This document shows, in pieces, positions 3,592 through 32,074 of a stretch of 34,079 nt of DNA. Where the stretch lies: NCBI GenBank assembly GCA_944358755.1, contig CALVRY010000001.1:1-34079 (forward strand). The letters are read 5' to 3'. The DNA comes from an uncultured Bacilli bacterium. Lineage in GTDB: Bacteria; Bacillota_I; Bacilli_A; RFN20; CAG-826. A program made the translations under genes and the position numbers. Within the stretch, counting starts at the first letter, position 1, and each line of letters starts with the position of its first letter. Under the pieces are notes generated by a model, which was not told the DNA's origin, did no database searches, and worked only from the letters and a program-made list of their open reading frames with translations.

Positions 3592-4248
3592 ATGATTTCT
3601 GAGCGTTTAAAACAAATATCAAATTTTATTAATGATGACCATGATGTAGCTGACATTGGCAGCGACCATGGTCTTCTTTTGGTTTTATTATCTAATCGTA
3701 ATTTTTCGCATGAAGTATTAGGAGTAGAAAATAAAATCGGACCTTTTTCTAATTTAGAAAAGACCGTTAATAAAATTGCAAAAAATAATTTCAAATGCCT
3801 TTTATCAGACGGATTAAAAGATGTTAAAGGAAATTATAAAACAATTGTAATTGCAGGAATGGGTTATTCTAACTTAAAAAATATCCTTAATAAAGATAAA
3901 AATCTTAAATCTCGTGAAAAATTTGTTATCGATTGTCATACAAATCAAAAAGAAATTAGAAATTTATTTTATGAATTGGGATATAAAGTAGAGGATGAAA
4001 AAGTAATTTTTGAAGATTCAATATATTATGATGTCATTAAATTTGAAATAAATAATGATAATCAAACTTATAATTCGCTTGAATTAAAATATGGTCCATT
4101 AAATATAAAAAGAAAAGATGATATTTTTATTCAAAGATATAATAAACAATTATATAAAGTTAAAAATTTATGCAATTCTATTAGCAATCTTGAGCGTAAA
4201 AAAGAACTAGAGTTAGAAATAAAAGAATTGGAGGAAATTATTAAATGA
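3592..4248 (+). CDS. trmK: tRNA (adenine22-N1)-methyltransferase TrmK/YqfN family
   Basis: 218 aa with a DIGSDHG SAM-binding motif. It occupies the position after sigA, as in Bacillus. Its TGA stop overlaps the next ATG (4245-4248). Confidence 0.75.
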   Translation: MISERLKQISNFINDDHDVADIGSDHGLLLVLLSNRNFSHEVLGVENKIGPFSNLEKTVNKIAKNNFKCLLSDGLKDVKGNYKTIVIAGMGYSNLKNILNKDKNLKSREKFVIDCHTNQKEIRNLFYELGYKVEDEKVIFEDSIYYDVIKFEINNDNQTYNSLELKYGPLNIKRKDDIFIQRYNKQLYKVKNLCNSISNLERKKELELEIKELEEIIK

Positions 4249-5027
4249 AAACTAAGATTTTACTTAAAAAATTATCTAAATATTTTCCTAAATCACTCGC
4301 AGAAAGTTATGATCATGTTGGTTTACAATGTGGCAAACTTAAAGAAGAAACAAACACAGTTTTATTGTGCCTAGATTATGATGAAGATGTTTACGATTAT
4401 ATTCTTCAAAATCGTTTAGAGAATAAGCTTGATATGATTATTTCTCACCATCCTTTTATTTTTGGAACAAGAGCAAAAGTTCTTAAAAATGATCCTTTAA
4501 AAAAGGAATTATTTGATAAAACATCGGCTTTAAATATTCCTGTTTACAGCTATCACACCAATTTTGATGGCGGTAAAGAAGGAATGAATGATGCTTTAAC
4601 TCGTGAACTTGAGTTAATTGATATTAAACCACTAGAAAATGAGCCAATGGCAAGAGGCGGATATTTAAAAGAAGAGATGGAAATTCATGATTTTGCTAAA
4701 TATGCCGCAAAGAAACTTAATGTTAACTATGGAACTTTAATTAATAAAGGCACAAAAACGATAAAAAAAGTAGCCATCATTGGTGGAGGCGGTTGGAGTT
4801 CTTATCTTGCCGCCAAAAACGAAGGCTACGATATTTTTGTAAGTGGTGATATTCCTCATCATGGAAGAAGAGGAGTTGTCGCAAATAAATACAATTATTT
4901 AGATTTACCTCATGAAATTGAAAAAATATTCATGAAGCAATTTAAGAAAGTTTTACTTTCTATAGATTCTGAACTACAGATTTTACTTGTTGATCAAGAA
5001 GATCTCCCTGAATTCCTCTATATCTAA
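4245..5027 (+). CDS. Nif3-family dinuclear metal center protein (YqfO-like, short form)
   Basis: 260 aa with HHPFIF, YHTNFD and GDIPHH motifs typical of NIF3/GTP cyclohydrolase 1 type 2 homologs. A GGAGG SD is present. Confidence 0.85.
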   Translation: MKTKILLKKLSKYFPKSLAESYDHVGLQCGKLKEETNTVLLCLDYDEDVYDYILQNRLENKLDMIISHHPFIFGTRAKVLKNDPLKKELFDKTSALNIPVYSYHTNFDGGKEGMNDALTRELELIDIKPLENEPMARGGYLKEEMEIHDFAKYAAKKLNVNYGTLINKGTKTIKKVAIIGGGGWSSYLAAKNEGYDIFVSGDIPHHGRRGVVANKYNYLDLPHEIEKIFMKQFKKVLLSIDSELQILLVDQEDLPEFLYI

Positions 5028-5898
5028 AGTAATTATAAATATCTTCTATTGTCTTTCTTGAAACGCTACCATCTGAAGTAACATAAATTTTACGATGAAC
5101 TTCAATATTTAATGCAATAGCTCCTGGCACATCAGAAATAACAGCATAGGAGATATTTTTTTCATTTAAATGATAATATTCTTCAATATATTTATCAGTT
5201 TTTGTTGAACTACTGATAATTAATAAAACATCATTATCTTTTAATTTTTCTAATAATGTCTTCTTTTTGTCATAATTTTCATCACTAACTTCGTGATTAA
5301 TTACAGCTTTAGGTAAATAAGTTTTAATTTTATATAAAGCCATCGAAAGTGAATCGTTAGCGATTTCACTTTGATAAATAATTTGAGTGCTTTTTTTGTT
5401 GTTCTTTTTATTTAAGCAAATTGCATTAGAAGGTGAGTCTGTATTTAAATCGTAAAAGAAAAATCTATGATTAGTTGATTTTGCTAAATAGTTTTCTTCA
5501 ACCGTATTAATGTTTCCAACAAAAATAACTTTTTTACCAAATCTAGCCTTTTTAATAAGCTTTTCTTTGTCTAAAGTAGAAGGAGATGTTGCATCAAAAT
5601 AAACAATTTTTCTCTTTTTCATTATTTTGAATAATTTTTGTTCAGTTCCATAAGGTGATGTAATAATGATTGTTTCGCGATCTACTTTTTTAAGATAATC
5701 GGCAAAACCTTCATAAGGGATATCTAAAACGACGATGTTAAGTCTACTTAACTCGTTTTTAGCATGTTCGCCGTTTAATAATCCTCCTAAAAGAACAATA
5801 TTAGAGTTCCTAAAGCTTGTTCTTGCTTGATAAGCAACGTTTAATAAATTATTTAAAGTTTTTGAGTAACCACATGGTTCAATAATTTCGATATTCAT
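4960..5898 (-). CDS. ispH: IspH/LytB-family protein (HMBPP reductase homolog), degenerate: all three Fe-S Cys ligands are Ser
   Basis: 312 aa, collinear by hand alignment with B. subtilis and E. coli IspH. GYS aligns with GYC/GFC, FDATSP with DATCP, and HEVS with QEIC. It has the same position and orientation as B. subtilis yqfP, between yqfO and cshB. Confidence 0.7.
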   Translation of the reverse strand: MNIEIIEPCGYSKTLNNLLNVAYQARTSFRNSNIVLLGGLLNGEHAKNELSRLNIVVLDIPYEGFADYLKKVDRETIIITSPYGTEQKLFKIMKKRKIVYFDATSPSTLDKEKLIKKARFGKKVIFVGNINTVEENYLAKSTNHRFFFYDLNTDSPSNAICLNKKNNKKSTQIIYQSEIANDSLSMALYKIKTYLPKAVINHEVSDENYDKKKTLLEKLKDNDVLLIISSSTKTDKYIEEYYHLNEKNISYAVISDVPGAIALNIEVHRKIYVTSDGSVSRKTIEDIYNYFRYRGIQGDLLDQQVKSVVQNL

Positions 5899-5954
5899 GA
5901 AAGTATTTTAACATTTTTAATGAAAAAATGGGATAAATTATATAAAATGACTGC

Positions 5955-7316
5955 ATGCAATTTAAATCTTTTAATCTAAAACCAGAAATTATTAATGTTT
6001 TAAGTGACTTAGGTTACGTTAATTTAACAAAAATTCAAGAATTAGTGATTCCAAAAGCCTTAAAAGGAGAGAATATTATCGCTAAAAGTGAGACAGGGAG
6101 TGGAAAGACTCACGCTTTTATTGTTCCAATTATCAATAACATAGTTAGTGATAATAATTTACAAGCAATAATTATTAGTCCAACTAAAGAATTAGCTCAA
6201 CAAACATACTCATTTATCGTACAAATTGTAGAAAAATTAGAAAATATTACAGTAAAATTATTTTCAAGTGGTGAAGACACCACGAAAGACAGTAAATCTT
6301 TTTATAATGGTGCAAATATTATTGTTGCGACACCTGGCCGTTTATCATATTTATTAAATAACGTACAAATTGATTTATCAAATTTAAAAACAATCGTTCT
6401 TGATGAAGCGGATATGCTCATTGATAGAACTTTTATTGATGAAATTGATAAAATTTTTAGTATTGTCGACAAAAACAAGATTCAAATCGAAGTTTTTAGT
6501 GCAACAATATCGAATAATGTTAATGATTTTTTAAGAAAATATATTTCGCCTGACTATTTATTAACTGTTGATGACGAAAATAAAGCTTCAAAAAACGTTA
6601 AACATTTTTTCATCAACACCAAACACCAAGACAAATTCCAATTATTGTTAGATTTCATTAATTTAAAAAATCCTTATTTATTATTTGTTTTCGGTAATTC
6701 AAAAACTGAAGCCAAAAAAATATATGAATTTTTATCCGAAAATAAGTTTAAATGCGGATTTATTAGCGGTGAATTAGAAAAAAGAGAAAGAAGATCAATG
6801 CTTAGAAGAATCAAAAACGACCAATATCGTATTGTTGTCGGAACTGATTTGGCTGCAAGAGGCATTGATGTGGAAGATGTTAGTGATGTTTTAAACTTCA
6901 ACATTCCAAACAATTTAGAATATTATTATCACCGTGCAGGAAGAACAGGACGAATTGGCAAAAGTGGAAATTGCTATTCTTTTTATGATAACGATAATTT
7001 AAATTTGCCTTCAAAACTAATTAATGAAGGGCTGGAAGTGGAATACTTAAAATTTAACAATGGAGAATTAGTTAAAGATATTCCTTTAAATAAAGATATT
7101 AAAAAGAAAAAATCCAATGTTAATACAGATTTAGAAAGAGAAATCAAAAAAGCTAAATTTAAAGCAATGGGCAAAAAAGTTAAGCCTGGATACAAGAAAA
7201 AAGTTAAACAAGCAATTGATAAAGTCAAAAGAAAACATAGAAGAGAAGTCATTAAAAAAGACATTCGTAGACAAAGAGTCGAAAGATATAAAAACGAAGC
7301 CAAAAACAATATTTAG
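5955..7316 (+). CDS. cshB: DEAD-box ATP-dependent RNA helicase with a Lys/Arg-rich C-terminal tail
   Basis: 453 aa with Q-motif, GSGKTHAF, DEAD, SAT and HRAGRTGR. Its synteny matches B. subtilis yqfR (cshB), between ispH and ispG. Confidence 0.85.
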   Translation: MQFKSFNLKPEIINVLSDLGYVNLTKIQELVIPKALKGENIIAKSETGSGKTHAFIVPIINNIVSDNNLQAIIISPTKELAQQTYSFIVQIVEKLENITVKLFSSGEDTTKDSKSFYNGANIIVATPGRLSYLLNNVQIDLSNLKTIVLDEADMLIDRTFIDEIDKIFSIVDKNKIQIEVFSATISNNVNDFLRKYISPDYLLTVDDENKASKNVKHFFINTKHQDKFQLLLDFINLKNPYLLFVFGNSKTEAKKIYEFLSENKFKCGFISGELEKRERRSMLRRIKNDQYRIVVGTDLAARGIDVEDVSDVLNFNIPNNLEYYYHRAGRTGRIGKSGNCYSFYDNDNLNLPSKLINEGLEVEYLKFNNGELVKDIPLNKDIKKKKSNVNTDLEREIKKAKFKAMGKKVKPGYKKKVKQAIDKVKRKHRREVIKKDIRRQRVERYKNEAKNNI

Positions 7317-7373
7317 TGCTTAATTAGTATTTTATCAGTATATTATTAGTACATAATTAGTAGTAAATTAGTA
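7314..7373 (+). repeat. phased TAGTA array A (6 units, 11-bp register)
   Basis: The sequence reads TAGTGCTTAAT|TAGTATTTTAT|CAGTATATTAT|TAGTACATAAT|TAGTAGTAAAT|TAGTACATATC. It spans from the cshB stop to the ispG stop. Confidence 0.85.
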
Positions 7374-8420
7374 CATATCAATTAATTTATAAAGCTCGTT
7401 GAGAACATTTTCTTCATCTGTTGTTTTTAGTATTTTACCATGACTAAAGATTTGAAAAAGGCCATTACCGCCAGCAATTCCAATGTCAGCATTTTTTCCT
7501 TCACCTATGCCATTAACGATGCAGCCCATAACAGCAACAGTTAAATTTTTTTTATGTTGAATCATATATTCCAAAATTTTATCAGCTATTTGAGCAGTAT
7601 TTTTAACCATACATCGACCACATGTAGGACAGGTTATAATTGTTGGATAATTTTCATATAATCCAAGATCATGTAATAACCTTACACACGTTTTAATCTC
7701 TTTTTGAGGATTGTGCGTGAGAGAAATTCTAATAGTAGAACCAATTCCTTCAAGTAATAGAGGAGAAAGTGCACTCACAGATCTAATAATACCAATTTCG
7801 TCATAACCACTTTCAGTAACACCAATATGAAGAGGATAATTAGTTTTTTTACTCATTAAACGATAAGCTTTAATAGTTAGAAGTGGATTTGAAGCTTTTA
7901 CGCTTATAACGAGTTTAGAAAAACCATATTCTTCAAATTTTTTGATATATTTTAAAGCACTTTCAGTTAATTTTTCTTCTTCAGATAAATTAGATGAAGC
8001 TAAATCCTTTTCTAAAGAACCTTTATTAACCCCAATTCTAATTGCGACATCATACTTTTTAGCAACATCAATTATTCTTTTTAATTTCTCATCGCTTCCA
8101 ATATTTCCTGGATTTATTCGTATTTTATCAGCTCCATTTTCAATGGCTAAAATGCCTAAATTAGCATCAAAGTGTATATCAGCAACAATCGGAACGCTAA
8201 CTCTTTTTTTAATTTCTTTAATTGCATAAGCATCATCTTTATCTAAAATACTTACTCTCATCATTTGTGCGCCTAAAGCAGTGCATTCGTTGATTTCTTT
8301 GACAACTTCATGAATTTTAGAAGTTTTAATGTCGCACATTGATTGAATTATAACTTGATTATTTCCGCCAATTTGAATATTTCCTATTTTTACAGGAATT
8401 GTATTTTCTCTCGTACTCAT
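7368..8420 (-). CDS. ispG: 4-hydroxy-3-methylbut-2-en-1-yl diphosphate synthase (IspG/GcpE)
   Basis: 350 aa with VADIHFD, RINPGNIG and RIGVNKGSLEKDL. The Fe-S ligands are intact (CPTCGRC ... MGCIVNGIGEG). Confidence 0.9.
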   Translation of the reverse strand: MSTRENTIPVKIGNIQIGGNNQVIIQSMCDIKTSKIHEVVKEINECTALGAQMMRVSILDKDDAYAIKEIKKRVSVPIVADIHFDANLGILAIENGADKIRINPGNIGSDEKLKRIIDVAKKYDVAIRIGVNKGSLEKDLASSNLSEEEKLTESALKYIKKFEEYGFSKLVISVKASNPLLTIKAYRLMSKKTNYPLHIGVTESGYDEIGIIRSVSALSPLLLEGIGSTIRISLTHNPQKEIKTCVRLLHDLGLYENYPTIITCPTCGRCMVKNTAQIADKILEYMIQHKKNLTVAVMGCIVNGIGEGKNADIGIAGGNGLFQIFSHGKILKTTDEENVLNELYKLIDMY

Positions 8421-8476
8421 ATAAATATTATATGCTGATTTTTAGATTAAAATATATAGAAACACACGGTTAAATG

Positions 8477-10986: not shown

Positions 10987-11170
10987 ATAATGATTTTACT
11001 ACATAAACTCATCTTTTTGATATCTGCTTTTTATAAAACCGCTTTCATAGGATAAAAAGCAAGCCATAAAGTTAAACAATTTTGATAAAATATTGTAATT
11101 TCTCTCAAAAAATCATCATTTTTTAATGAAAAATATTTATTAAAAAGTAATTAATAAAACAATATTTTTT

Positions 11171-30685: not shown

Positions 30686-32074
30686 TTAAGCTTTTTTGCA
30701 GCAACCATCATGATGATGACAGCAATGACCTTCTTCATGATCATGTTTGCATTCACAATCATCGCCTTCACAACATTCACATTCGTGGTGGTGATGTTCG
30801 CTCTCGCTATTAAAATATTTCCCTAAAAAATCATCTAAATCATCTAATTTGACACTAACTTGCTCTTTAGTATCTAATTTTTTAACAGTTACTGTTTCAT
30901 TAAGAATTTCATCATCTCCAATAATAAAGGCTAATTTTGAATTTCTTCTCTCGGCCTTTTTAAACATTTGACCCATTCCTTTTTGTTCGTAACAAACTTC
31001 ACAAGAATAGAATGCTTTTCTTAGTTGGAAAGCAAGTCCTACTGCAAAATCTCTTGCTTTATCACCCATTGGCATAATAAAGATGTCAGTTGTATTATCT
31101 AAATTAGGGAAAAGATTGTCATCTTCCATAACTTTTGCAAGTCTTTCAATACCAAATGCAAATCCAACACCTTCTAAATCAGGTCCACCAATTTCTTTAA
31201 TAAGATTTCCATAGTGGCCACCAGCGCCAATTGCGCCATAATTATTTCCGTTTTGTGAAGTATAATGGAATTCGAATACAACTCCAGTGTAATAATCAAG
31301 GCCTCTAACTAATTCTTGATCAACTTCAAACGGAATTTCTAATTTCGTTAAGTATTCTTTAACTTTTTCAAATCTTTCTTTAGCAGCATCAGTTAAATAA
31401 TCTTGAATTTTAGGAGCTCCATCAATAATTGGCCTATCAGCCGGATCTTTACAATCAAGAATACGAAGAATGTTTAATTTATAACGTTCTTGGCAATCAG
31501 AACACATATTTTCGATATGTTTTCCAAAATATTCTTTTAAAGCAGTTTTATAATTTTCTCTACTTTGTTCATCACCAAGTGTGTTAATTAAAAGTTTAAC
31601 TTTACCAAAATTAAGATATTTAAGCATTGTATATCCAAGAGCAATAACTTCAACATCTCGTTCAACAGTTGTTACACCTGTACATTCGATACCAAATTGA
31701 TTAAATTGTCTATATCTTCCTTGTTGTGGTCTTTCATAACGGAAGTTTGGTCCACAATAAAAAGCTTTAACAGGATAATCTTGAATAGCAAAAAGTTTTG
31801 CATTAACCATGCTTCTAATAATTCCTGCTGTCATTTCAGGTCTTAAAGTTATATTTCTTCCACCTTTATCTTCAAAAGTATACATTTCTTTTCTAACAAT
31901 ATCGCTACTATCGCCAACCGAACGTGTGAACAAATCACTGCTTTCAATTACAGGAGTTCTGAATTCTTGATAACCATAAATAACAGCGATATTTGTCATA
32001 ACTTCTTCGATATAAGAGTACTTCTTTGCTTCTTCTTTTATGACATCGTGTGTTCCTTTTACAACATTAAACAT
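30686..32074 (-). CDS. hisS: histidine--tRNA ligase with a C-terminal Cys/His-rich extension
   Basis: 462 aa with a canonical HisRS core (KGTHD, RPEMT, FRYERPQQGRYRQF, GGRYD-like GAGGHYGN). A 41-aa tail follows: NSESEHHHHECECCEGDDCECKHDHEEGHCCHHHDGCCKKA. Confidence 0.9.
   Translation of the reverse strand: MFNVVKGTHDVIKEEAKKYSYIEEVMTNIAVIYGYQEFRTPVIESSDLFTRSVGDSSDIVRKEMYTFEDKGGRNITLRPEMTAGIIRSMVNAKLFAIQDYPVKAFYCGPNFRYERPQQGRYRQFNQFGIECTGVTTVERDVEVIALGYTMLKYLNFGKVKLLINTLGDEQSRENYKTALKEYFGKHIENMCSDCQERYKLNILRILDCKDPADRPIIDGAPKIQDYLTDAAKERFEKVKEYLTKLEIPFEVDQELVRGLDYYTGVVFEFHYTSQNGNNYGAIGAGGHYGNLIKEIGGPDLEGVGFAFGIERLAKVMEDDNLFPNLDNTTDIFIMPMGDKARDFAVGLAFQLRKAFYSCEVCYEQKGMGQMFKKAERRNSKLAFIIGDDEILNETVTVKKLDTKEQVSVKLDDLDDFLGKYFNSESEHHHHECECCEGDDCECKHDHEEGHCCHHHDGCCKKA

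What the first reader, a model, noticed from the sequence alone, without database searches (positions are those of the whole stretch)
4960..5898. Syntenic IspH homolog with all three [4Fe-4S] cysteines replaced by serine
The 312-aa protein is collinear with IspH/LytB. It sits where B. subtilis ispH (yqfP) sits, between yqfO and cshB. The three cluster ligands are all Ser: GYS12 aligns with GYC/GFC, FDATS105P with DATCP, and HEVS205 with QEIC/DDIC. I verified S12 as a TCA codon at 5863-5865. Conserved substrate-binding residues are also changed: SAHG/TAHG becomes SPYG, GHxGHPE becomes GNINTVE, NQTT becomes YQSE, and SNNSNRL becomes STKTDKY. The ORF is nevertheless intact. IspG, 1.5 kb away, retains its Cys and Glu ligands. 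The protein therefore looks like a retained pseudoenzyme or a repurposed scaffold. If no second ispH exists, the MEP pathway would stall at HMBPP.
Basis: partly seen in the sequence, partly recalled or inferred. Interest (0 to 1): 0.65.

Follow-up and report, generated by a model that had tools for sequence, protein, structure and literature searches.

The report
IspH enzyme relic without iron-sulfur site
A group of uncultured gut bacteria keeps an intact, well-conserved copy of the isoprenoid enzyme IspH that has lost every residue needed to hold its iron-sulfur cluster. It almost certainly no longer does the classical reaction and has been repurposed, which leaves open how these bacteria finish isoprenoid synthesis.

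Summary
ORF 4960-5898(-) is a full-length, collinear IspH/LytB homolog: Pfam PF02401 scores 44 bits, and hhalign against canonical IspH gives 99.9% probability and E=1e-35. All three [4Fe-4S] cysteines are serine (S12, S105, S205). The diphosphate-binding His41, His74, His124 and Ser225/Asn227 are also replaced. Glu126, Gln166 and Ser269 remain.

It is the syntenic ortholog, not a stray paralog. Canonical relatives carry Cys-IspH in the same nif3/cshB slot.

The Ser form defines a monophyletic clade of at least 8 species of uncultured gut "Mollicutes/Bacilli" MAGs. dN/dS is 0.04-0.10, like neighbouring housekeeping genes. The promoter is conserved. The former active-site positions are the most conserved part of the protein. 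ispG is intact next door in every locus long enough to show that slot.

A second, independent lineage (P0074) also has Cys→Ser at all three positions, and ispG is gone from that locus.

Best reading: this is a cluster-less, non-reductase IspH derivative kept for a new, non-redox function.

I could not test whether a canonical ispH, or the other MEP genes, exist elsewhere in these genomes. The "pathway stalls at HMBPP" idea therefore stays open.

I found no report of such a form, and I rate it a new variant of a known kind.

The parts
4960..5898 (-). 312-aa IspH/LytB-derived protein without cluster ligands (the Ser-type IspH)
   Evidence: Intact ORF. PF02401 44 bits. hhalign 99.9% against canonical IspH. 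AlphaFold2 pLDDT 87, and the top 12 Foldseek hits are all IspH structures, E down to 5e-16. dN/dS 0.037-0.10.
5863..5865 (-). Codon 12, TCA = Ser, in the column of cluster ligand Cys12
   Evidence: It is Ser in 10 of 11 diverse family members and Thr in one.
5584..5586 (-). Codon 105, TCT = Ser, in the column of cluster ligand Cys96 (FDATSP against FDATCP)
   Evidence: Invariant Ser in the family.
5284..5286 (-). Codon 205, AGT = Ser, in the column of cluster ligand Cys197
   Evidence: Invariant Ser, encoded AGY in most lineages but TCT in L013.
5497..5499 (-). Codon 134, Glu, the retained equivalent of catalytic Glu126
   Evidence: Invariant in all Ser-type and all 122 canonical sequences. 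Coordinates computed from the start codon.
5905..5913 (-). Extended -10-like element TGTTAAAAT, 6 nt upstream of the ATG (leaderless-type promoter)
   Evidence: Sequence. The motif ...TTTTTCATxAxAAATGTTAAAAT... is conserved upstream of the gene in all Ser-type loci, including the 46-50%-identical ones. The same -10-next-to-ATG layout occurs at ispG, cshB and plsY. It is a consensus match, and function is inferred.
5899..5954 (.). 56-nt divergent intergenic region shared with cshB
4245..5027 (+). nif3/yqfO (DUF34_NIF3), convergent, with its 3' end overlapping the IspH-like ORF by 68 nt (4960-5027)
   Evidence: The same overlap is seen in L002 and L022.
5955..7316 (+). cshB-type DEAD-box helicase, the divergent neighbour
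7368..8420 (-). Canonical ispG (HMBPP synthase), found next to the gene in every Ser-type locus long enough to show that slot
   Evidence: NCBIfam NF001540 412 bits against a cutoff of 345. Present in L002-L013, L022 and L029. dN/dS 0.03-0.07.

Best explanation
The gene is the vertically inherited ortholog of ispH in a clade of uncultured, AT-rich gut Bacilli/"Mollicutes". These are probably RF39-like, which is my inference from the MAG names. On the stem of this clade the protein lost all three [4Fe-4S] cysteines and most diphosphate-binding residues in a burst of substitutions. It therefore cannot carry out the 2-electron reductive dehydroxylation of HMBPP.

It did not decay. It keeps the three-domain IspH fold and has been held under strong purifying selection ever since. 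The central pocket is new but tightly conserved. It is polar and acidic, made up of S12, S105 and S205 plus N42, Y83, T132, E134, Q176, S177, E178, D206, K233 and S278. The protein also has a conserved 20-aa C-terminal tail and a more basic overall charge.

I commit to the following reading: it now works as a non-redox protein that uses the old active-site cavity to bind a small polar or phosphorylated ligand, acting as a sensor, carrier or non-redox catalyst.

Shown: the loss of ligands, the orthology, the selection and the pocket conservation.

Inferred: the absence of a cluster, the loss of reductase activity and ligand binding. The identity of the ligand is unknown. ispG stays next to the gene in every locus that shows that slot, so HMBPP or another MEP intermediate is the leading candidate.
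For: (1) Column assignments place Ser in all three Cys columns.

(2) No conserved Cys exists in the family. Only C9 is common, and it is F or I in divergent members.

(3) The protein fails the IspH equivalog models: 43 bits against 276, and 36 against 188.

(4) Orthology. Canonical Cys-IspH of the nearest relatives sits in the same trmK-nif3 / cshB-nfo-ispG slot (L014, L015, L017, L018-21).

(5) The Ser clade is monophyletic in 200 of 200 bootstraps. It covers 8 GTDB species genomes, 54 90%-identity clusters and 3 full-length 50%-identity clusters among 1.84 billion representatives.

(6) dN/dS is 0.037 for window-L006 (dS 0.42) and 0.08 for L002-L008. That is the same range as ispG, nif3 and cshB, and lower than trmK.

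(7) The burst is specific to this gene. Against the canonical lineage L018, neighbouring genes are 40-86% identical but IspH is only 24%. Ser-Ser pairs at a similar divergence are 47-50% identical.

(8) Positions homologous to the IspH active site are the most conserved in the family. Entropy is 0.47 against 1.20 bits (Mann-Whitney p=1e-6). Invariant positions are 11 of 27 against 41 of 284 (Fisher p=0.0016).

(9) The fold is retained: pLDDT 87, and the top 12 Foldseek hits are all IspH structures.

(10) An extended -10 element is conserved upstream in all members.

(11) The organism still makes Fe-S enzymes, since its IspG is canonical. The loss is therefore specific to IspH.

(12) An independent lineage (P0074, L016) also has Ser at all three positions and an intact ORF, although ispG is deleted from its slot.
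Against: - No biochemical data exist. That no cluster is bound is inferred from the sequence alone.
- The ligand and the function are unknown. Nothing in Pfam, NCBIfam or PDB suggests a new activity.
- Glu126, Gln166, Thr167 (as Ser) and Ser269 equivalents are retained, so some HMBPP-related chemistry cannot be excluded.
- ispG is co-retained under strong selection. The cell therefore makes HMBPP and presumably needs a reductase that I could not locate.
- The P0074 lineage lacks ispG at the locus. This argues that at least that scaffold does not need HMBPP.
- The Foldseek TM-score to the E. coli closed form is only about 0.6. The domain arrangement may differ, or the model may be imprecise.
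Confidence: 0.6

Rival explanations
1. A second, canonical ispH exists elsewhere in these genomes, by duplication or horizontal acquisition, and completes the MEP pathway. The syntenic copy was freed from its catalytic duty and drifted to a new role. This agrees with the best explanation about what this protein is. It differs only on the pathway consequence: MEP would not stall.
For: ispG is intact and strongly constrained in every Ser-type locus that shows its slot, so a downstream HMBPP reductase is expected. No alternative to IspH is known (my own knowledge). A published metabolic model of RF39/RFN20 gut lineages reports complete MEP pathways, uppS and peptidoglycan genes (PMC7301438).
Against: - Every canonical IspH of related lineages that I inspected lies in the syntenic slot, not at a second locus.
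- Among 113 canonical homologs retrieved with the nearest canonical relative, none shares a contig-length fingerprint with a Ser-type contig. The single match, 85,107 bp, proved to be two different contigs. This is a weak negative.
- These genomes appear reduced, which makes paralog retention less likely. This point is an inference.
Confidence: 0.4
2. There is no HMBPP reductase in these organisms. The MEP pathway ends at HMBPP, or isoprenoid units are obtained another way. The Ser-type protein binds or handles HMBPP as a carrier, sensor or non-redox converter.
For: ispG and the Ser-type gene are adjacent in every locus of the main clade that shows the slot, across species as divergent as 46% identity. 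The catalytic Glu, Gln166, Ser/Thr167 and Ser269 are retained, along with a Ser/Thr/Lys-rich loop in place of the SxN diphosphate loop. In this window, ispA and dxs are not found after xseA-xseB, which is where B. subtilis has them (the B. subtilis gene order is from my own knowledge).
Against: - Three His are lost and E178, D206 and D235 are gained, which makes the pocket less suited to a diphosphate without a metal (inference).
- The adjacency to ispG is ancestral, so it is not evidence of a functional link.
- Cells that make peptidoglycan need IPP for undecaprenyl phosphate.
- The independent Ser-type lineage (P0074) has lost ispG from the locus and still keeps its ORF.
Confidence: 0.2
3. 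The protein is still an HMBPP reductase. It would use a cofactor ligated by non-Cys residues, such as Ser, Asp or Glu.
For: Ser is the replacement at all three ligand positions, in two independent lineages. E126 is retained. ispG is co-retained.
Against: - No natural Fe-S cluster is known without any Cys ligand (my own knowledge).
- The His and SxN substrate-binding residues are also replaced.
- Scores against the IspH equivalog models are far below cutoff.
- P0074 keeps its Ser triplet although ispG is absent from its locus.
Confidence: 0.03
4. The ORF is a decaying relic (a young pseudogene), or a sequencing or assembly artefact, with no function.
For: It lacks the catalytic machinery and has no Shine-Dalgarno sequence.
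Against: - dN/dS is 0.04-0.10.
- The ORF is an intact 305-313 aa in full-length members across 54 clusters and at least 8 species.
- The identical protein occurs on at least 22 contigs.
- The promoter is conserved.
- The former active site is the most conserved region.
- About half of the genes in the window also lack a Shine-Dalgarno sequence.
Confidence: 0.02

Closest known systems
IspH/LytB, 4-hydroxy-3-methylbut-2-enyl diphosphate reductase (EC 1.17.7.4; PF02401, TIGR00216; e.g. E. coli 3F7T/3KE8)
   Same: It has the same three-domain fold, is collinear over about 285 columns, and occupies the same genomic slot between nif3 and cshB near ispG. It retains Glu126, Gln166, Thr167 (as Ser) and Ser269.
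   Different: All three cluster Cys are Ser. His41, His74 and His124 are Asn, Tyr and Thr. Ser225, Ser226 and Asn227 are Lys, Ser/Thr and Asp. It has a 20-aa conserved C-terminal tail, a higher pI, and fails every equivalog cutoff. It is descended from the family but does not meet its defining catalytic features.
Cluster-less relatives of Fe-S enzymes that took on other roles, e.g. IRP2 and apo-IRP1 versus aconitase (analogy from my own knowledge)
   Same: The scaffold of an Fe-S enzyme is retained without the cluster and kept under selection for a non-catalytic or different function.
   Different: It is unrelated in sequence and fold. An RNA-binding or regulatory role here is pure speculation. 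The only hints are the basic pI, the DEAD-box helicase neighbour, and the existence of IspH-S1 fusion proteins in other Firmicutes (model NF000907 listed).
IspH paralog pairs in bacteria with two copies, e.g. LytB1/LytB2 of Mycobacterium tuberculosis (my own knowledge)
   Same: They show that IspH homologs can diverge in role within one genome.
   Different: To my knowledge those paralogs keep the three Cys and the reductase activity. Here the syntenic ortholog itself is cluster-less, and no second copy has been demonstrated.
P0074 (L016), an independent Ser-Ser-Ser IspH found here
   Same: It has Cys to Ser at all three ligand positions, an intact ORF, the same synteny and a basic pI.
   Different: It arose separately. 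It groups with canonical P0246-250 in 200 of 200 bootstraps. It keeps His124, QTT and Ser225. ispG is absent from its locus. It is known from a single contig, so selection could not be measured.

Membership tests
IspH/LytB HMBPP reductase (EC 1.17.7.4) | Homology and fold of the LytB family (PF02401) | tested here: met
   PF02401 44 bits against a cutoff of 24.5. hhalign 99.9%, E=1e-35. The top 12 Foldseek hits are all IspH structures.
IspH/LytB HMBPP reductase (EC 1.17.7.4) | Three conserved Cys (E. coli C12, C96, C197) ligating the [4Fe-4S] cluster | tested here: not met
   S12, S105 and S205 occupy those columns. There is no alternative conserved Cys. In the 122 canonical relatives C96 and C197 are always Cys, and C12 is Cys in 121, with one alignment gap.
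IspH/LytB HMBPP reductase (EC 1.17.7.4) | Diphosphate-binding residues His41, His74, His124, Ser225, Asn227, Ser269 | tested here: not met
   The residues here are N42, Y83, T132, K233, D235 and S278. Only Ser269 is kept.
IspH/LytB HMBPP reductase (EC 1.17.7.4) | Catalytic proton relay Glu126 / Thr167 | tested here: met
   E134 is invariant. S177 is Ser or Thr, and canonical relatives also show Ser or Thr there.
IspH/LytB HMBPP reductase (EC 1.17.7.4) | Score above the curated equivalog cutoffs (TIGR00216, NF002187 and others) | tested here: not met
   36 bits against 187.85, and 43 against 276. All eight IspH models are far below cutoff.
IspH/LytB HMBPP reductase (EC 1.17.7.4) | Orthologous genomic position | tested here: met
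   It occupies the same slot as canonical IspH in L015, L017 and L018-21.
IspH/LytB HMBPP reductase (EC 1.17.7.4) | HMBPP to IPP/DMAPP activity and Fe-S spectroscopy | not testable with these tools
   This needs purified protein or a complementation assay.
Pseudoenzyme / repurposed enzyme scaffold | Loss of residues essential for the ancestral catalysis | tested here: met
Pseudoenzyme / repurposed enzyme scaffold | Maintained by purifying selection across species | tested here: met
   dN/dS 0.037-0.10 for unsaturated pairs. The clade has at least 8 species.
Pseudoenzyme / repurposed enzyme scaffold | Demonstrated alternative function | not testable with these tools
   No informative domain or structural hit beyond IspH was found.
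Decaying pseudogene | Frameshifts or stops, dN/dS near 1, patchy retention | tested here: not met
   The ORF is an intact 305-313 aa in full-length members. dN/dS is low. The upstream promoter is conserved.

The most novel reading that the evidence does not exclude
These gut bacteria have no HMBPP reductase at all. IspG is kept, so the MEP pathway ends at HMBPP, and the Ser-type IspH has become an HMBPP-binding or handling protein. That would make this clade natural HMBPP accumulators or secretors. HMBPP is the most potent known activator of human Vgamma9Vdelta2 T cells. It would also imply an unknown route to, or independence from, IPP/DMAPP.
Probability: 0.15. Interest if true: 0.85.

Novelty: new variant of a known kind. 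Interest (0 to 1): 0.62.

Why it matters
IspH is treated as an essential, universally Cys-ligated Fe-S enzyme of the MEP pathway. It is also an antibacterial and antimalarial drug target.

A whole clade of prevalent human- and animal-gut bacteria carries, at the ancestral locus, an IspH that cannot bind the cluster yet is as strongly conserved as housekeeping genes. This matters in three ways:
1. Pfam-domain-based pathway reconstructions could call MEP "complete" in these genomes when it may not be.
2. The IspH fold supports a second, unknown function, and that outcome arose twice independently.
3. If no second ispH exists, these commensals would be natural HMBPP producers, with direct relevance to gamma-delta T-cell immunology.

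It also gives a natural triple Cys-to-Ser variant for mechanistic work on IspH.

Tried and rejected
- Whole-genome check for a second ispH or for dxs, dxr and ispDEF. This was not possible.
- Contig-length fingerprinting as a substitute. I compared the longest-contig lengths of 113 canonical homologs with those of the Ser-type clusters. The one match, 85,107 bp for P0265 and P0003, was a coincidence: they are different contigs.
- Extending the window through HisS. The contig ended at the same place.
- The 661-aa thiamine enzyme in the window is transketolase, not Dxs.
- Literature searches found nothing on Cys-less IspH. The terms were IspH + pseudoenzyme, IspH-like/LytB-like/homolog/paralog, and lack or absence of ispH. 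Only a general RF39/RFN20 metabolic model was useful.
- The weak Pfam hit to the SIS domain (E=0.017, below cutoff) is best explained by a similar strand-loop-helix phosphate-binding motif. I did not use it.
- Rfam and tRNA scans of the window returned nothing.
- The sigma-70 consensus scan of the region was not enriched over shuffles. The promoter argument rests on cross-species conservation instead.
- dS is saturated for most inter-species pairs, so only the window-L006 and L002-L008 dN/dS values are relied on.
- Database names for the family were all empty.
Full report
**What is there.**
The minus-strand ORF 4960-5898 encodes an intact 312-aa protein. It lies convergent to nif3/yqfO (4245-5027, with a 68-nt 3' overlap). 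It is divergent from a cshB-type DEAD-box helicase (5955-7316), with a 56-nt spacer. A canonical ispG sits 1.47 kb away at 7368-8420. The wider window has Bacillus-like gene order: glyS-dnaG-sigA-trmK-nif3 / ispH / cshB / ispG / rpmG-MBL-efp / plsY / parE-parC ... xseAB, nusB, tkt, aspS, hisS, relA. GC content is 29.5%.

**Checking the observation.**
- Pfam PF02401 (LYTB) matches at 44 bits against a cutoff of 24.5, over residues 6-290 and profile positions 4-265 of 267.
- All eight NCBIfam IspH models are far below their cutoffs, for example 43 against 276 and 36 against 188.
- phmmer against PDB aligns FDATSP with E. coli FDATCP and "evSd" with "diCy".
- A MAFFT alignment with E. coli IspH and canonical relatives places S12, S105 and S205 in the C12, C96 and C197 columns.
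- A profile-profile alignment does the same: hhalign probability 99.9%, E=1.1e-35, 285 collinear columns.
- C9 aligns with E. coli R9 and is not conserved. C161 lies in a variable insert.
- The codons are TCA (5863-5865), TCT and AGT.
- In the 122 canonical relatives tabulated, C96 and C197 are always Cys, and C12 is Cys in 121, the other being an alignment gap.
- The exact protein is present on at least 22 independent metagenome contigs.

**It is a family, and it is the ortholog.**
A search of 5.8 billion proteins found 54 clusters at 46-99% identity. Apart from two truncated entries (243 and 298 aa), they are 311-313 aa.

An exhaustive profile search of 1.84 billion representatives found only three full-length 50%-identity clusters of this type. 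The next hits were canonical Cys-IspH proteins of AT-rich organisms, at 137 bits or less.

Eight GTDB species genomes carry the gene. All are uncultured gut MAGs labelled "Mollicutes", "Bacilli" or "bacterium", for example UMGS238 and UMGS732. Canonical relatives include MAGs named "Candidatus Onthovivens" and "Mollicutes bacterium". I therefore infer an RF39-like lineage, but I could not verify the taxonomy.

The closest canonical IspH proteins sit in exactly the same slot, trmK-nif3 | ispH | cshB-nfo-ispG. These are P0059/L014, P0061/L015, P0250/L017 and P0265/L018-21. The Ser-type gene is therefore the vertically inherited ortholog.

A neighbour-joining tree gives 200 of 200 bootstrap support for monophyly of the Ser clade, nested among canonical sequences.

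**It is under selection, not decaying.**
dN/dS by the Nei-Gojobori method is 0.037 for window against L006 (dS 0.42) and 0.08 for L002 against L008 (dS 0.08). This is the same range as ispG, nif3 and cshB, and lower than trmK.

Relative to the canonical lineage L018, neighbouring genes are 40-86% identical but IspH is only 24%. Ser-Ser pairs at a comparable species divergence are 47-50% identical. This pattern points to a burst of change on the stem of the clade, followed by constraint.

Within the family, positions homologous to the canonical active site are the most conserved:
- Mean entropy is 0.47 against 1.20 bits (Mann-Whitney p=1e-6).
- Invariant positions are 11 of 27 against 41 of 284 (Fisher p=0.0016).

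The conserved residue set is new: S12, N42, P82-Y83, S105, T132, E134, Q176, S177, E178, S205-D206, K233, G277-S278.

Further observations:
- AlphaFold2 gives a confident model (pLDDT 87, pTM 0.82). Its top 12 PDB Foldseek hits (all E < 1e-3) are IspH structures, with E down to 5e-16 and TM about 0.6.
- The proteins carry a conserved C-terminal tail of about 20 aa that the AT-rich canonical relatives lack.
- They are more basic than canonical relatives, with pI about 9 against about 6-8.7.
- An extended -10-like element, TGTTAAAAT, lies 6 nt before the ATG. It is conserved in all Ser-type loci, including the most divergent.
- The same layout of a -10 element next to the ATG, with no Shine-Dalgarno sequence, occurs at ispG, cshB and plsY. 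This suggests leaderless transcripts. That is an inference.

**Context with ispG.**
Every Ser-type locus long enough to show it has an intact ispG next door: L002-L013, L022 and L029. The window's IspG passes the equivalog cutoff and has dN/dS of 0.03-0.07. The organism therefore still builds Fe-S enzymes and presumably makes HMBPP.

**A second, independent case.**
Among the representative hits, P0074 (291 aa, on contig L016) also has Ser at all three ligand positions, plus H41 to Q and H74 to S. It keeps H124, E126, QTT and S225.

It groups with the canonical proteins P0246-P0250 in 200 of 200 bootstraps. It never groups with the window's clade, in 0 of 200.

Its locus has the same synteny, but ispG is missing from the slot between rpmG and nfo. 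tblastn finds no ispG in 20.9 kb. The canonical sister L017 has ispG there.

P0074 is 47% identical to its sister. That falls within the range of its neighbours and is not accelerated relative to a canonical-canonical pair.

The Ser codons also differ between lineages. S205 is AGY in most but TCT in L013. S12 is AGT in P0074. This is compatible with separate single-step changes from TGY. Alternatively, selection may have held Ser in place.

So retention of a cluster-less IspH scaffold has happened at least twice, once without ispG at the locus.

**Interpretation.**
The protein cannot ligate a [4Fe-4S] cluster in the canonical way, and it lacks most substrate-anchoring residues. I conclude that it is not an HMBPP reductase (an inference, held with high confidence).

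It is nevertheless a functional protein whose old catalytic cavity is its most constrained part. I therefore favour a non-redox ligand-binding or catalytic role. The ligand is unknown. HMBPP or another MEP intermediate is the leading candidate in the window's clade, because ispG is always co-retained. The acidic remodelling of the pocket and the ispG-less P0074 lineage both argue for caution.

**What could not be settled.**
I could not determine whether a canonical ispH, the upstream MEP genes, ispA/uppS or a mevalonate pathway exist elsewhere in these genomes. Only about 20-34 kb around the gene was readable.

Indirect checks:
- All inspected canonical homologs are syntenic orthologs from other species.
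- No canonical homolog shares a contig with a Ser-type gene by contig-length fingerprint. The one match was a coincidence.
- The window's 661-aa ThDP enzyme is transketolase, not Dxs.
- xseA-xseB is followed by dinB rather than by ispA-dxs, the order found in B. subtilis (the B. subtilis order is from my own knowledge).
- A published model of RF39/RFN20 reports complete MEP pathways, uppS and frequent loss of ispA. It did not examine IspH residues (PMC7301438).

I put roughly 40% on a second reductase existing. I put 15-20% on a pathway that truly ends at HMBPP.

**Novelty and score.**
I found no paper describing a Cys-less IspH, and the public sources give the family no name. It is a new variant of a known kind: an IspH-derived pseudo-reductase. 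Interest is 0.62. The finding is clearly real and surprising for the field, and it makes a sharp question directly testable. The most exciting consequence remains unverified.

Noticed in passing
L016:10001-10876 (protein P0074; Logan ERR13731099 contig, 71.9 kb): This is a second, phylogenetically independent IspH with all three cluster Cys replaced by Ser. It sits in the same synteny, but ispG is deleted from its usual slot between rpmG and nfo. The canonical sister locus L017 still has ispG there.
   Followed up: partly
window 5899-5954, 8421-8440, 10987-11010: First genes of transcription units (the ispH-like gene, cshB, ispG, plsY) have a -10-like hexamer 6-7 nt upstream of the ATG and no Shine-Dalgarno sequence. 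This suggests leaderless mRNAs. About half of the genes in the window lack a Shine-Dalgarno sequence.
   Followed up: partly
window 7317-7367: In the window (and its 97%-identical relative L006), cshB is followed directly by ispG. Most relatives have an nfo-type AP endonuclease (PF01261) between the two. L002 and L022 have a 286-288-aa ORF with no Pfam hit in that place.
   Followed up: no
window 4960-5027: The convergent genes nif3 and the ispH-like gene overlap by 68 nt at their 3' ends. The overlap is conserved in L002 and L022, but it is only 4-14 nt in the canonical loci L017-L021 and absent in L003. It coincides with the extra C-terminal tail of the Ser-type protein.
   Followed up: no
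window 30686-30810 (minus strand; C-terminus of HisS): Histidyl-tRNA synthetase ends in an unusual His/Cys-rich tail of about 40 aa (…SESEHHHHECECCEGDDCECKHDHEEGHCCHHHDGCCKKA). It looks like a metal-binding extension.
   Followed up: no
window 23506-26150: xseA-xseB is followed directly by dinB and xerD. The ispA-dxs pair that follows xseB in B. subtilis (my own knowledge) is not here, and folD is absent between nusB and xseA.
   Followed up: no
protein P0060 (272 aa): This is a chimeric protein. Its first 108 or so residues are Ser-type IspH, and the rest is an unrelated sequence. It could be a gene fusion, a truncation or a misassembly.
   Followed up: no
L013 codon 205; L016 codon 12: The Ser codon class differs between lineages at the former Cys positions: AGY against TCT at position 205, and TCA/TCT against AGT at position 12. 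Both classes are one step from TGY. This hints that some Cys-to-Ser changes happened separately in sublineages.
   Followed up: partly
L023:1872-2654: In one metagenome contig that carries the identical IspH-like protein, nif3 is split into two ORFs of 163 and 87 aa. This is either a frameshift or an assembly error.
   Followed up: no
window 1-34079: The whole 34-kb window has no Rfam family at gathering score and no tRNA gene. That includes no T-box leader upstream of hisS/aspS or glyS.
   Followed up: yes
window 18891-19442 and 20323-21357 (minus strand): A 183-aa ORF and a 344-aa predicted lipoprotein (LVSCGG lipobox) next to an ABC permease have no NCBIfam match.
   Followed up: no
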